A DNA stretch of 63,412 nucleotides, filler included, from Kipferlia bialata (lineage: Eukaryota): NCBI GenBank assembly GCA_003568945.1. It is 8 parts of 7 records of this genome, joined end to end, with 100 filler letters (N's around TTAATTAATTAA, not from the genome) between each part and the next. Parts side by side here need not be neighbours in the genome. Positions count along the whole stretch, not along the records: positions 10,123 to 20,138 come from BDIP01001512.1; positions 20,239 to 24,469 come from BDIP01001513.1; positions 24,570 to 28,359 come from BDIP01001514.1; positions 28,460 to 33,095 come from BDIP01001514.1; positions 33,196 to 43,206 come from BDIP01001515.1; positions 43,307 to 53,312 come from BDIP01001516.1; positions 53,413 to 63,412 come from BDIP01001517.1; 1 more part is not named here. One strand, given 5' to 3'. Below are positions 12,691-60,925 of this stretch, one piece after another; the first letter of the stretch is position 1; every line of letters begins with the position of its first letter. The notes under the pieces are model-generated. The model had not been told where the DNA came from. It searched no databases and saw only the letters and a program-made list of their open reading frames with translations. The translations under genes and the position numbers were made by a program.

Positions 12691-14024
12691 ATGCGCGTGC
12701 TCATCGTGTGTGTGCTTCTGCTTGTGAGCTGTGTGCTCGCTGCCCAGCCAACTGGCAATGGAGAGCTGTCCCATGCCGTTTCCATGGCCATTAGGCAGGT
12801 ATGGAGGAGATCAGGTCTTACTATCATGTCGGTCTTGATTTGCTTGTGGAATAGTTGACATAGCGTATCGATGATGGTATGTATACGCTAGTGTTTACAT
12901 CAACGTAGTCCTTAGATCTAGTGGATGCCTCCTTCGAGGCCATCCTGTCCGACATGATACTCACCTAGGATAGTATGTCTATCCTCATCTATACATGTAT
13001 CCCCCTCACCCCAGTCCCTGCTCGATGCCTCCTTCGAGGGTATCCTGTCCGACTACCTCGACTCTGACTCTGTCGCCATCCTGATGGACTCACTCGACCC
13101 AGGTATGCAAAAGACACAATAACCTAAAGCCGCAATTGTGCACTTTCTGATGTCTCTCTCACCCAGGCCCGATCTATGCCCCTGAGAACCAGTCCTGGCC
13201 CTCTGCCTCTGCCATCACAGCTGATGGGACCCTGGGCACTGTGCTGGCCTCTGGGTCAGTGGTGCACTGCCACAACGGTATGTATAGAGATACACTGCTT
13301 CTATGTATAGTACTTATATATCGTATTTGTGTCAGGTACACTATTATGTGTCTTCTGGGTCAGTGGTGCACTGCCACAACGGTACGGACAGAATGACACA
13401 CCCACACACATATATATATATATATATATGTGTATAGGAATGTGCATAGTGTATATATTTGTGTGTGGCCTCTGGGTCAGTGGTGCACTGCCACAACGGT
13501 ACGGACAGATGCATACAGAAATGTATGAGTGTGCATAATTTACATATGTGTGTATTAGATGCGGTGTGTGTCATCTGGCAAGTGGTGCACTGCCACAACG
13601 GTATGTGGATATTGTAGTTCATATACGGCGTGTCAATCTATGTAGCACCTTCTGACCCCCTCTCTATCTCTATGCCCCCTTCACCTCCTCCGTCTCTGAT
13701 TTCTCTTTCTCTTTCTCTCTCTCTCTTCCTCTCTCTCTGTCTGTCCCCGTTTACTGCAGCATATGCCCCCCTCACTTCCTCCTCATCTGACCATACCCGC
13801 ACACACACACTCTCTCTCTTCTCATGCTCAGGCTATGCCCCCTTGACCTCCGCATCTGTACCCAACCCCTCTCTCTCTCTCTCTCTCTCTCACTCTCTCT
13901 GTCTGTCCCCGTTATCTGCAGCCTATGCCCCCCTCACTTCCTCCTCATCTGACCATACCTGCACACACACACACTCTCTCCTCATGCTCAGGCTATGCCC
14001 CCTTGACCTCCGCCTCTAACCCCA

Positions 14025-14062
<38 letters not shown>

Positions 14063-14844
14063 GTCTGTCCCCTTTAACTGTAGGCTATGCCCCCTTCACC
14101 TCCTCTGCCACCTCCCATGCCGGCATAGACATGGACCTGGTCGAGAGGGCCATGGAGATTGTGGCAGCTCACTACAAGGTACTATACATATGTATTTATA
14201 TATATGTATATACTATTATATCACTCTGTTGTAATATGTACCCCATGCTGTATGTACTCTCACTATGTGGAGATTGTGGCAGCACACTACAAGGTATATA
14301 TCATTATACTATTGATCATCAGTATATAGATACACATCATTATTATATCCCTCACCCCCAGGTCCCCTCCATCTCTGTAGAACACATACACCCCCTCCCC
14401 TTCATCTCTCTCCCCCCCTGTATTCTGTTTCCCTCACCCCCAGGTCCCCTCCATCTCTTTGGAGCACATACTCTCTATCTGTTTTTCCCTTCCTCTCTCT
14501 CTCTGTACTATATATATATATATATATATATGTATCCCTCACCCCCAGGTGCCCTCCATCTCTGTGGAGCACAGGTCCCTCTTGAGTCTCTCTCGCCTTT
14601 CATATCAATAGAGATTCTATTCCCTGTATATATACTCTCTCTCCCTTATATCAGGTCCCCTCCATCTCTGTGGAGCACATACTCTCTCTCTCTCCCTCCC
14701 CTTCCTCTCTCTCTTAGTACTATGTGTGTATATATGTATCCCTCACCCTAGGTCCCCTCCATCTCTGTGGAGCACAGGTACATCGACAGCAGCAGTGCCT
14801 TTGCAGAGGCTGCTAACACATGGGACGCCATGGTGATAGGTGAG

Positions 14845-14884
<40 letters not shown>

Positions 14885-15016
14885 CCTCTCACCCTAGCCA
14901 TGGGCCAGGGCACCAGTGTCACGTATATTTGTCAGTCTATATCATCCTCTATATATATATACATTCATTTGTATCTATGTATATGACCCCTCTCACCCTA
15001 GCCATGGGCCAGGGCA

Positions 15017-15060
<44 letters not shown>

Positions 15061-57366: not shown

Positions 57367-57401
<35 letters not shown>

Positions 57402-57822
57402 TCTAGTCTCCACCCCCCCTGCCCCCTGTGCCGGGTGCCCCAACTGTCCCTGTGCAGAGATACCCTGGGAGGAGGCATCACTAGGCAGAAACAGGTATAT
57501 ACATAAACACAAATATAGGTAGAGAGAGAGAGAGAGACTAGCTGTCCATGTGCTGAGATACCGTGGGAGGAGGCATCAGAGGGGAGGAATAGGTATGCAC
57601 ATATATGTATATATATGAGTATAATGAATGTATGTATATATATATAGAGAGAGAGACTAACTGTCCATGTGCAGAGATACCCTGGGAGGAGGCCTCGGAG
57701 GGGAGAAACAGGTATATGTATACATATGTATAGAGAGAGAGAGATATATACCCTGGGATGCATCACTTGCCAGAAACAGGTCCGGCAGAGATATCTATAA
57801 GTACACATATATTTATGGAGAG

Positions 57823-57856
<34 letters not shown>

Positions 57857-60800
57857 ATATCAATAGTAGAGGCATAGCAATGAGTATGTTGCATTGAGTA
57901 GAATCTATTCTCAAGTAGTGTTAGGGACTATCTGTATGTAATTAAGTATATATGTATATATGTATATACACGCATACGTCTCTGACTCTTCAGGTTCCAG
58001 ATTGCCCTTCTCTGGACATTTGCTGCCGGACTAGCCAAGGTATAGGATAGATGGAGGGCGTTGACACACACACAAATATATATGTGTGTATATATATGTG
58101 TGTGTGTTGTGTATATAGCTGGTGCTGCCGGACTCGCCAAGGTATCCAACAGATTGAGCGAAGACTATTATATATACAATTGTATATCTTGCACATGGTG
58201 CAAGCAGTGATTAATTTGTTCTTTGATTGATTCACTAACTGTTAGGAGACTGTACCGCAGTGTAATATGTATATAAATGTACACAGATATGTATATAGCT
58301 TCAGTCCATTGATTTATCTGTCAGGAGACTGTGCCCCAGTGTGGAGACCTTATTCCATCGGGACACTCGGGGTATGTCATCTAGCTATAGTATTCACTAT
58401 ATATAGTCCATGGCTTACCTCAGCTACATTCTTCTCCTTGTCTTCTTCTGCATCGAGGCAGTGCAGAGGGAGAGTGTTTACTATACTCTAATACTATGTA
58501 TGTTCATATCATCTCACCATAGCTACATTCTTCTCCTTGTCTTCTTCTGCATAGAGGCAGTGCAGAGGGAGAGTGAGAGACAGGTGTACGTGGAGGCCAA
58601 TGCAAGGGAGGAGAGGTATGATTCAAGTACATTGCACCACTGTTATTCATACATGGATTTATGTACTTACTGGTGTATATAGGTGTATATAGGTGTATGT
58701 GCATATACTGTGTCAGGAAGGAGAGGTAGGATGTCCATTGTTCCATGTACTGAAGAGATTCCTGCTATTCAATTGTACATTGCATAGAGACCGTTCGGCT
58801 TTGCAGCAATAATATTACTTCTGGACTGTGTGTCCACTGTCTAGGTGAAGGTGTTGCACCATTATAGTGGCATTGCATTGTTATGTCTTATGTAATGGAA
58901 CTAACCCCTTAGGAAGCGTCGACGCCTTGTGCGTGTATACACCGTGACCCTTCTCTGTGCCCTGGCCGTCGCTCTGTTCTCCATCGCATTCATCAGGAAT
59001 CATTACACTATTGATGTAAGTACACCTTATTACATATATACTCTATCATTCATCAGGAATCATTATACCATAGACGTACGTGTAGTAGTATACCTGAATA
59101 GTATTTAGTATACCAATGAACGGTAGATTAACAACTGTGTATTACCACCTATGTACATCTTATTGGTTAGGTCCTCTTTGCCACTTTCTTGTCTGTCGGT
59201 CTGTGGCTGTATATACATACATACATATCTACGCGATACTTCAATGTCTCTACACGATATGTGTTAATACTCCAGGTCCTGTTTGCCACTTTCTTGTCTG
59301 TTGGTCTGTGGCTGTCCTACTCTGCACTGGAGTACGGGGTGCAGACAGGGAAGCAGGCAGCACAGGGTGAGTCAATATATATATATATATATAGATAGAT
59401 AGATAGATGTGCACTCATGTATATAGTATATACTACATATATATGTATATACTCTGGAGTACGGGGTGCAGACAGGGAAACAGGCAGCACAAGGCATGAT
59501 AATGTATATGTATATATGTATATGTATATACTATACACTGTATACTATTCTGTATACTGTATACTATATACTCTGCACTGGAGTACGGGGTGCTGACAGG
59601 GAAACAGGCAGCACAGGGTATGTATACATATTGTAGATGGGTATACATATATACATGTTATATACTATATACTGTATACTGTGTACTATATACTCTGCAC
59701 GTGAGTACGGAGTGCAGACAGGGAAACAGGCAGCACAAGGTATATTAGTATATATATATATATATGTGTATATATGTGTGTGTGTGTTGTGTGTGTATCT
59801 TTTGCACCCATACATTTGTACAAATGAGCAGTATCACCTGTATCATTGCTGATACTGAATCAGTTCTATATAGTATAGAGACCGATTCTGGGTAGCATGG
59901 CACTGAAACTCCTGCTATCCCATAGGCTCCATCCGCGTGTTACTATGGATATAGTGTATAAATGTAAATTCTATCAGGAAATCTATACATATAGTCCCTG
60001 ATCACAGGCTCCATCCGCGTGTTACTGAATGCCGTGTCATGGCTAGAGCACAGGCCTGGTGACAACACAGGCTTGATGCCACTCCACACACCCCTGGACA
60101 TAAAGGCTAGGGTATGTATATACACTCATATATACATGCATCAATATACATGTATATATGTATNNNNNNNNTATATACACTCATATATACATGCATCAAT
60201 ATACATGTATATATGTATATATGTATGTATACAGGCCTCATGCCACTCCATACACCCCTGGACATCAAGGCTAGGCCAGGGTATGGGTGTATATACAAAT
60301 ATACATATACATACATCAATACATATATGTATATATGTATGTATGTATGAATGGTGTATCAGGAGGTAATAATAATGTACCCATTGTATTAATACTACAC
60401 CCATGCTATATGTAGACTCTGATGATATATATCAGTCAGTATCCTTATTAGGAGGGGTTCCTAGATGTTGTGCCCCCTTGCATCCATTAGTATCTGATTA
60501 TAAGGGGGGGGGGTTATATACTGTACATATATGTACGTGTCCTTACCATAAGGAGGAGGTCCTGGCCGTTCTGCCCCCTTACATATATAGATACATATTG
60601 ACTTATGTGTTTAGGTGTATATGTATATGTATATATTTATGTATATGTATATGTATATATTTTTGTATATATAAATGTATCCTTATATCAGGAGGAGGTC
60701 CTGGCCGTTGTGCCCCCTTACATGTATAGATACATATTGACTTATGTGTGTTTAGGTGTATACATTTATGTATATATTTATGTATATATTTATGTATATA

Positions 60801-60925
60801 TTTATGTATATACTGTACATATATATATTGTATCCTTATATCAGGAGGAGGTCCTGGCCGTTGCACCACCTGTTGATAGTGTGCCATTCACACTGGAGGA
60901 CTCGGACGAAGACCTCATTGTATAG
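54195..60925 (+). CDS. Sphingomyelin synthase / IPC synthase family phosphotransferase (PAP2_C domain), ~14 exons, internal gap
   Basis: D2-like 'YLFLRTASFT|VSTPPAP', D3 'CGDLIPSGHS' (~58340-58370) and D4 'RNHYTID|V' (~58996-59015) give the catalytic H/H/D triad. Multiple TM helices; stop at 60923-60925. The start exon is tentative. Confidence 0.9.

What the first reader, a model, noticed from the sequence alone, without database searches (positions are those of the whole stretch)
12900..60860. Polarised 'splice-boundary echo' introns: exons flanked by arrays of decoy copies of their own ends
Seen: in at least six unrelated genes, on both strands and five scaffolds, long introns are built from 15-60 nt copies of the adjacent exon ends. 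Downstream of an exon lie copies of [exon 3' end + GT]; upstream lie copies of [branch point + AG + exon 5' start]. The copies I traced do not cross a spliced junction and are separated by divergent (TA)n/(CT)n-rich spacers, giving D1 D2..Dn / A1..An. Only the outermost pair gives the ORF. Inference: tandem duplications spanning splice sites drive intron growth. The spliceosome must then either skip proximal near-perfect sites (exon definition) or peel the intron inside-out by nested splicing. I know of no description of this as a genome-wide architecture, but could not search.
Basis: partly seen in the sequence, partly recalled or inferred. Interest (0 to 1): 0.92.

Follow-up and report, generated by a model that had tools for sequence, protein, structure and literature searches.

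The report
Splice-junction echoes carrying old allele signatures
In the protist Kipferlia bialata, 50 of 71 introns in five genes hold stacked ~100-base copies of the neighbouring exon ends that the one mRNA examined skips, and these copies differ from the working exon mostly at silent codon positions, which likely means they are leftovers of other working alleles added by recombination rather than simple copying slips.

Summary
The window is eight Kipferlia bialata scaffolds. In five modelled genes, 50 of 71 introns carry 111 copies of the adjacent exon end plus splice site (unit median 103 nt). Donor copies always lie before acceptor copies. DNA contigs span neighbouring copies at single-copy depth. 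One spliced RNA contig joins the outermost sites at ten echo-bearing introns.

Nested peeling is not supported as a rule: 31 of 50 introns have only one kind of copy. Polarity follows from junction-spanning duplication plus the reading frame.

New here: the copies differ from the exon at 3.1% of non-degenerate but 18.4% of four-fold sites (ratio 0.17; a neutral copy gives about 0.5). Their splice signals keep full strength while differing at about half of positions, yet some copies now carry stops, frameshifts or lost sites. They were likely functional until recently, probably as other alleles captured by recombination. This is inferred, and the resident exon's central position among the copies is not well explained.

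Single-locus analogues are known (human F7 IVS7, CBS 844ins68), and the scan noted single-locus cases in other genomes. Ten literature searches found no dense multi-gene architecture like this.

The parts
12691..19802 (+). Gene A (3' 731 codons of deposited KIPB_006069, P0001; no Pfam family), 20 exons, 14 echo-bearing introns
   Evidence: RNA contig
13278..14083 (+). Intron with 3 donor echoes (13354, 13462, 13581) then 5 acceptor echoes (13670, 13762, 13832, 13923, 13992; the last four form a 162-nt dimer repeat); outermost sites joined in RNA
14179..14751 (+). Intron with 1 donor echo (14268) and 4 acceptor echoes (14362, 14444, 14549, 14655); outermost sites joined in RNA
15436..15813 (+). 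Acceptor-only intron: two intact acceptor echoes (15611, 15706) are skipped and the last acceptor is used
16196..16448 (+). Intron whose donor echo (16268) lies 4 nt from an inner piece of the next exon (16308); likely a collapsed inner intron
17815..19544 (+). 3' part of gene A with echoes at 17952, 18185, 18269, 18362, 18636, 18744, 19065, 19387 and 19470
   Evidence: RNA loose end at 17815
21839..22058 (+). Donor echoes (21928, 22033) of an exon ending near 21858; gene not modelled
29073..32952 (-). Gene E (hand model; frame open over the first six exons, unresolved break after 30461), echoes in six introns, including three donor echoes at 30411, 30306 and 30202
37798..42773 (-). Gene D (hand model with outermost sites; colinear with paralog KIPB_000284, 59% identity over 325 columns, 5 gaps), 13 echoes
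43321..43768 (-). Acceptor echo pair (43321/43454) and three near-identical 66-nt donor-spanning units (43557-43768); gene not modelled
44793..44960 (+). Acceptor echo pair of a plus-strand gene; not modelled
45618..53052 (-). Gene C (deposited KIPB_006080, P0003), 17 exons, echoes in 11 introns, e.g. four donor echoes 51696-51341
54391..60925 (+). Sphingomyelin-synthase-like PAP2_C gene (KIPB_006082, P0002, plus hand-modelled 5' exons), echoes in most introns, e.g. four donor echoes 55857-56190 and three at 59454-59740
62520..62731 (-). Acceptor echo of a minus-strand gene; not modelled

Best explanation
These introns have grown by repeated ~100-nt insertions that each carry one exon end with its splice site and ~70 nt of intron; the mature mRNA examined uses only the outermost sites, and the inserted copies are likely pieces of other working alleles brought in by recombination. 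SHOWN: structure, polarity, physical linkage and outermost use in one mRNA contig of gene A; a purifying-selection signature in the exon part and in the splice signals of the copies; and present decay of some copies. INFERRED, origin: between diverged alleles only exons can pair, because intron flanks are far more diverged. A repair or recombination tract that starts in an exon near its edge copies through the splice site into the intron and is closed by a non-homologous joint. This leaves two versions of the junction in tandem, one per allele. Some units are later re-duplicated on the same chromosome, and partial conversion from the resident exon would pull copies toward it. INFERRED, survival: copies that would make a complete mini-exon or alter the exon are purged, so only D..D/A..A stacks remain. 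INFERRED, splicing: pairing of sites across the exon (nearest donor and acceptor flanking the true exon) picks the first donor and last acceptor with one rule.
For: Echo vs exon: 55/1796 differences at non-degenerate and 88/479 at four-fold sites, ratio 0.17 (bootstrap by array 0.12-0.23). The bias holds in each of five genes and both echo types; echo vs echo is also 0.17. Untrimmed 15-nt windows give 0.20 and trinucleotide stratification 0.17. A neutral echo beside a selected exon, simulated through the same pipeline, gave means of 0.52-0.58 and a minimum of 0.33 in 160 runs. Amino-acid changes are milder than random (BLOSUM -0.13 vs -0.64, p 0.013). Echo splice signals differ from the real ones at 45-50% of positions yet score as high (3.95 vs 3.83 for acceptors, null 0.73; 1.55 vs 1.74 for donors, null -0.39). 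Copies are decaying now: 13 of 61 donors and 6 of 50 acceptors are lost or out of register, 7 of 8 in-core indels shift frame, and there are 2 stops. No complete mini-exons: 0 of 61 and 0 of 50 have a strong partner site at the far edge, against a background of 6.6% and 5.2%. No close paralog appeared as a source: each of three searches with one exon returned only the gene's own protein, and each cluster has one member. RNA joins the outermost sites; random choice would give about 2e-8 correct gene A mRNA. Metamonads lack NHEJ proteins and keep key meiotic proteins (PMC8516963 passages).
Against: No second allele was seen: no variant letters were listed in the DNA run (contigs drop variants). 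Changes private to one echo outnumber changes private to the resident exon about 4:1 at degenerate sites (0.114 vs 0.030 per site), whereas random allele sampling predicts near symmetry. The model therefore needs an added conversion or re-duplication step and very high allelic divergence, and detection by likeness to the real exon biases this count by an unknown amount. Divergence is not overdispersed among echoes (p 0.24) and does not track spacer similarity (rho 0.15), so there is no clear split into recent same-chromosome copies and foreign copies. Exon-part and spacer lengths are uncorrelated, so there is no fixed synthesis tract. Junctions are not enriched at dinucleotide runs (26 of 111 vs 25%). 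Sex has not been observed directly in metamonads (PMC8516963 passage). Exon definition was not tested in this organism.
Confidence: 0.5

Rival explanations
1. The echoes are same-chromosome duplicates that are still functional. They would be translated or swapped into the exon by an unrecognised route (stage-specific splicing, or frequent DNA switching between the direct repeats), so selection acts on them directly.
For: Fits the synonymous bias, the kept splice strength and the central position of the resident exon without needing extreme allelic diversity. Five RNA joints at repeats were dropped by the tool, and contigs hide rare forms.
Against: No partner splice site at the far edge of any echo. 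78 of 85 echo sites give a stop or frameshift. Frameshifting indels and lost sites are present. The RNA contig covers no echo and shows no other letters. By my reasoning, collapse or conversion on one chromosome alone gives a ratio near 0.5.
Confidence: 0.2
2. Ordinary slippage or microhomology-joined tandem duplication on one chromosome, followed by neutral decay (junction-spanning minisatellite of the F7/CBS kind).
For: Six of 105 spacers are near-identical to the real intron flank and 25 are significantly similar. There are clear head-to-tail arrays of 66, 108 and 162 nt. Echoes with more similar spacers have a higher non-degenerate rate (19/403 vs 31/1291). Echo-bearing scaffolds have more dinucleotide repeats (6-15% vs 4%).
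Against: Predicts a ratio of about 0.5 or more, and near 1 between echoes copied from echoes; 0.17 is seen in both. Predicts spacers as similar as the exon parts, but ungapped flank identity past the consensus is only about 45% against about 30% for unrelated introns. It probably explains a minority of units.
Confidence: 0.13
3. Nested (inside-out) or recursive splicing uses the echo sites as obligatory stepping stones, which is why they are kept.
For: Donor-before-acceptor order in 19 of 19 mixed introns; echo sites as strong as real ones; innermost cores are often of normal intron size (median about 108 nt, n=48). A mature-mRNA contig cannot show intermediates.
Against: 31 of 50 echo introns are one-sided and only 9 are balanced. 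In 15436-15813 two intact acceptors are skipped with a single donor. Echoes are not enriched at AG|GT junctions (Fisher p 1.0 and 0.78), and only 2 of 34 AG|GT donor echoes reach the 20th percentile of real acceptors. It does not explain the codon-position bias.
Confidence: 0.08
4. Assembly artefact: diverged haplotypes laid in tandem by a short-read assembler (the unit length is close to a common short-read length, and the differences look allelic).
For: Allele-like differences; unit median 103 nt; the DNA run may be the assembly's own sample.
Against: Independent contigs of run X1 span neighbouring echoes and their unique spacers with no mismatch (13480-13791, 14075-14376, 14545-14837, 15610-15837, 15988-16321) at depth 407-466, against 455 and 427 for flanking unique contigs. 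Up to five different copies stand at one junction.
Confidence: 0.04

Closest known systems
Human F7 IVS7 37-bp minisatellite (PMC1557585; abstract and Discussion read)
   Same: The unit spans an exon-intron boundary, several downstream donor copies are functional yet silent, and only the most upstream is used.
   Different: One locus with identical donor copies, donor side only. Here 50 of 71 introns are affected, on both sides, with mostly diverged spacers and synonymous-biased differences.
Human CBS 844ins68 (PMC2630376; passages read)
   Same: [quoted passage not shown]
   Different: A single two-copy polymorphism; no stacks and no facing donor arrays.
[quoted passage not shown]
   Same: A duplicated donor junction.
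   Different: It is 403 bp, causes aberrant splicing and disease, and so shows that tolerance is not automatic.
Intron gain by tandem genomic duplication (PMC3265369, PMC4974935, PMC2891723; search listing only)
   Same: Tandem duplication involving splice-like signals changes exon-intron structure.
   Different: Those create or shift introns. Here no new intron is seen; existing introns lengthen.
Recursive, nested and twin introns (recalled; lead e1-7835500)
   Same: Extra donor and acceptor signals inside one intervening sequence.
   Different: One-sided and unbalanced arrays, and no AG|GT enrichment.
One-sided invasion / homology-facilitated illegitimate recombination (recalled; two searches gave listings only, none on exon edges)
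   Same: Homology on one side and a non-homologous joint on the other is the proposed origin.
   Different: Not shown here; I found no report of it building stacks of splice junctions.

Membership tests
Junction-spanning minisatellite/duplication (F7 IVS7, CBS 844ins68 type) | Repeat unit contains an exon end and its splice site | tested here: met
   111 echoes; splice dinucleotide in register in 48/61 donors and 44/50 acceptors
Junction-spanning minisatellite/duplication (F7 IVS7, CBS 844ins68 type) | Only the site next to the intact exon is used in mature mRNA | tested here: met
   One RNA contig, ten echo-bearing introns of gene A; rare forms not visible
Junction-spanning minisatellite/duplication (F7 IVS7, CBS 844ins68 type) | Units near-identical along their whole length | tested here: not met
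   6 of 105 spacers near-identical, 25 significantly similar
Junction-spanning minisatellite/duplication (F7 IVS7, CBS 844ins68 type) | Copy number varies between individuals | not testable with these tools
   Only one sample held; no relative found in metagenomes
Nested/recursive splicing | Every inner site has a partner (balanced donors and acceptors, or AG|GT with a strong acceptor) | tested here: not met
   31/50 one-sided, 9 balanced; 2/34 strong acceptors at AG|GT donor echoes
Nested/recursive splicing | Intermediate junction or lariat reads | not testable with these tools
   Only contigs available
Mutually exclusive or duplicated exons | Complete exon copy flanked by acceptor and donor | tested here: not met
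   0/61 and 0/50; copies cover exon ends only
Mutually exclusive or duplicated exons | Purifying selection on the copy's reading frame | tested here: met
   Ratio 0.17
Introner-type repeated introns | Same intron sequence repeated at unrelated loci | tested here: not met
   Unrelated introns about 25-35% identical past the consensus positions; copies are locus-specific
Allele capture by recombination (proposed) | Echo variants occur as working alleles in other isolates | not testable with these tools
   No second isolate

The most novel reading that the evidence does not exclude
K. bialata introns are a stacked record of recombination between highly diverged alleles. Each echo is an exon end and splice site from a different allele, so one genome assembly preserves samples of many past alleles. 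That would be sequence evidence for outcrossing in a group where sex has not been seen, and a new route of intron growth tolerated by strict cross-exon splice-site choice in a reduced spliceosome.
Probability: 0.4. Interest if true: 0.9.

Novelty: new variant of a known kind. Interest (0 to 1): 0.76.

Why it matters
It offers thousands of likely natural competition experiments between equally strong splice sites in a short-intron protist with a reduced spliceosome (87 of 174 studied proteins; PMC6679479 abstract passage). The last of several intact acceptors wins, which simple first-come scanning does not predict. If the allele reading holds, a single genome carries a readable record of past alleles and of recombination in metamonads, plus a mechanism that more than doubles intron length in affected genes. 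The codon-position test can be run genome-wide on the existing assembly today.

Tried and rejected
No whole genome is held, so there was no genome-wide test. No earlier notes exist for this genome or for P0002. Read evidence covers only 12600-17860; run X2 is not on record as RNA, although its contig is spliced. A metagenome scan with P0001 found no relative among 264 pattern hits. Pfam named only P0002, 1 of 4 proteins. Age gradient along arrays: not significant (rho 0.12, n=69; splice dinucleotide kept in 25/27 nearest vs 20/27 farthest echoes). A ladder of frozen snapshots was rejected: far-differs 66 vs near-differs 61. The fixed-window centrality permutation is confounded by short echoes running into spacer, so I rely instead. 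Microsatellite-triggered junctions: no enrichment. Context-dependent mutation: rejected. Whole-exon duplication with later truncation: rejected by reasoning, since it would also leave wrong-side copies, and none were seen. Gene E's model breaks frame after 30461; leaving it out, or keeping only the three genes with deposited proteins (40/1297 vs 65/366, summed), leaves the ratio at about 0.17. The null is harsh for acceptors, where slippage in C-rich tracts shifts register; the donor result is less exposed to this. Literature: ten searches found no description of this architecture. In the genome paper PMC5874029 (passages and sections 7 and 12 read; supplements not opened), 'duplicat' occurs 0 times in the main text. 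Subscription papers are not covered.
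Full report
Source. The window is eight scaffolds joined by N-linkers. Three exon queries each returned one protein, 100% identical, named Kipferlia bialata KIPB_006069, KIPB_006082 and KIPB_006080, on contigs of 10016, 10000 and 10006 bases that equal the scaffold lengths. 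The genome paper reports 124,912 introns, a SPAdes short-read assembly and AUGUSTUS models with RNA hints, and its main text has no word beginning 'duplicat' (PMC5874029 passages and sections 7 and 12). No whole genome was available here.

Observation. Exact spliced maps of the three proteins gave 53 introns. Their exons hit adjacent introns 75 times in 106 pairs, non-adjacent introns 17 times in 2862 pairs, and the reverse strand of adjacent introns once. Upstream-exon copies were always 3' ends and downstream-exon copies always 5' starts. I added hand models for two more genes and the 5' part of a third. Gene D's outermost-site model aligns colinearly with paralog KIPB_000284 (59% identity, 5 gaps); gene E has an unresolved frame break after its sixth exon. 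The nine-exon upstream part of P0001, which has no echoes, was left out of the five-gene counts. The total is 111 echoes in 69 arrays, in 50 of 71 introns: 17 donor-only, 14 acceptor-only, 19 mixed, with donors first in all 19 by aligned range (random order p about 2e-11). Units have a median of 103 nt (IQR 91-116, n=106), about 30 nt of exon plus 70 nt of spacer. Each echo adds about 93 nt, and echo units make up 56% of intron bases in gap-free introns. Four further unmodelled genes show echoes, and two scaffolds with many splice sites show none.

Real DNA. Contigs of run X1 span neighbouring echoes with their unique spacers, without mismatches, at depth 407-466 against 427-455 for unique flanks. 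This run may be the assembly's own sample and covers 12600-17860 only, but it argues against haplotypes laid in tandem.

Which sites are used. One 2207-nt contig of run X2 lies in exon pieces. Record coordinates are contiguous across the echo introns 13278-14083, 14179-14751 and 17187-17330. Skipped record lengths (177 and 65 nt) equal the modelled exons across 14840-15813 and 15932-16448. Depth is zero in the bins 13304-14007, 14184-14711, 14888-15063, 15592-15767, 15944-16119 and 17528-17703, and the loose end at 17815 continues into the outer acceptor copy. Together these support outermost joining at ten echo-bearing introns: three directly, the others by arithmetic, depth or loose end. It is one contig; rare forms are invisible and the tool dropped five joints at repeats. 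The three deposited models also use outermost sites throughout, though they are predictions. Echo sites score as well as real ones (acceptor echo at least equal in 23 of 43). Random choice would leave about 2e-8 of gene A mRNA correct, so decay of errors cannot be the main filter. 78 of 85 echo sites tested would give a stop or frameshift, and 7 would not.

Nested splicing. It cannot be the general route: 31 of 50 introns are one-sided, only 9 are balanced, and donor and acceptor counts are uncorrelated. Recursive use is not favoured either, with no enrichment at AG|GT junctions and weak acceptors at donor echoes. No echo has a strong partner site at its far edge (0 of 61, 0 of 50; background 6.6% and 5.2%). 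This excludes mini-exons and suggests that complete ones are purged. One rule, pairing the nearest sites across the true exon, would pick both the first donor and the last acceptor; this is inference. Polarity itself follows from geometry: a duplicated donor junction leaves the spare copy downstream, and a duplicated acceptor junction leaves it upstream.

The unexpected result. Differences between echoes and the exon fall mostly on third codon positions (152 of 264 unique changes). In trimmed cores, 55 of 1796 non-degenerate and 88 of 479 four-fold sites differ, a ratio of 0.17 (bootstrap 0.12-0.23), in every gene and both echo types; echo-echo pairs give 40/822 and 63/214, also 0.17. A neutral copy beside a selected exon should give about 0.5 or more. 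Simulation through the same pipeline gave means of 0.52-0.58 and never below 0.33 in 160 runs. Untrimmed windows give 0.20 and context stratification 0.17. Splice signals show the same pattern: 45-50% of positions differ from the real site, yet consensus strength is kept (the acceptor null is harsh because of slippage). Intron flanks are far more diverged than four-fold sites, with only 6 of 105 spacers near-identical. The copies are nonetheless decaying: 19 of 111 sites are lost or out of register, 7 of 8 indels shift frame, and 2 stops occur.

Interpretation. The copies look like junctions that worked until recently, not like decaying duplicates of today's exon. No close paralog appeared as a source (three single-exon searches, so weak). 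The simplest source is other alleles: recombination or repair that starts in an exon, the only part that pairs, runs through the splice site and ends in a non-homologous joint. Metamonads lack NHEJ proteins, fornicates have lost Rad51A and carry two Dmc1 paralogs, and key meiotic proteins are kept although sex has not been seen (PMC8516963 passages). That is context, not proof. Against this reading, changes private to an echo outnumber those private to the exon about 4:1, divergence is uniform among echoes and unrelated to spacer similarity, and no second allele was seen. The model needs added conversion or re-duplication from the resident exon. I give it 0.5, ongoing hidden function 0.2, plain neutral duplication 0.13, nested splicing 0.08 and artefact 0.04.

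Known cases. Human F7 IVS7 is a 37-bp minisatellite across a donor in which only the first copy is used (PMC1557585, abstract and Discussion). CBS 844ins68 duplicates an intron/exon junction and the distal site is used (PMC2630376 passage). An FGG donor duplication is harmful (PMC9052919 abstract). The window works like the first two at each junction but fails their near-identical-unit feature. Ten searches found no dense two-sided architecture and no synonymous signature in such copies; the library lacks most subscription papers. Earlier scan notes hold single-locus cases in other genomes only. Verdict: real, a new variant of a known kind, with an unexplained selection signature; interest 0.76.

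Noticed in passing
window 40894-41081 (- strand): A GC-AG intron in gene D; the model using it is colinear with the paralog.
   Followed up: partly
window 10653-12798: Deposited P0001 appears to fuse an upstream echo-free gene to gene A, which starts with its own signal-peptide-like ATG exon at 12691; the RNA contig reaches only to about 12736.
   Followed up: partly
window 13703-14105: Two acceptor echoes were re-duplicated together as a 162-nt dimer, showing duplication among the echoes themselves.
   Followed up: partly
window 43557-43768: Three 66-nt donor-spanning units 95-98% identical including the spacer: a young same-chromosome array.
   Followed up: no
window 30160-30411 (- strand): Three donor echoes encode nearly the same peptide end as the exon through different serine and leucine codons, including two-step synonymous switches; these stretches were trimmed from the counts. 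The reading frame to the next modelled exon is unresolved.
   Followed up: partly
window 1-10022 and 24570-28359: GC-richer scaffolds with many short introns, few dinucleotide repeats (4%) and no echoes, so the architecture is patchy between genes.
   Followed up: partly
window 18185-18208 and 18269-18292: Both donor echoes share a change that makes an AG near their start, giving a possible 19-nt micro-exon; the acceptor score is below the threshold used.
   Followed up: partly
window 55-459 (-) and 27109-28341 (-): ORF pieces that look like an ASCH-domain protein and a TatD-type nuclease (labels recalled, not tested).
   Followed up: no
window 10023-10122 and six similar places: Scaffold joins are N44 plus a 12-nt linker with stops in all frames plus N44; they are not biological.
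   Followed up: yes
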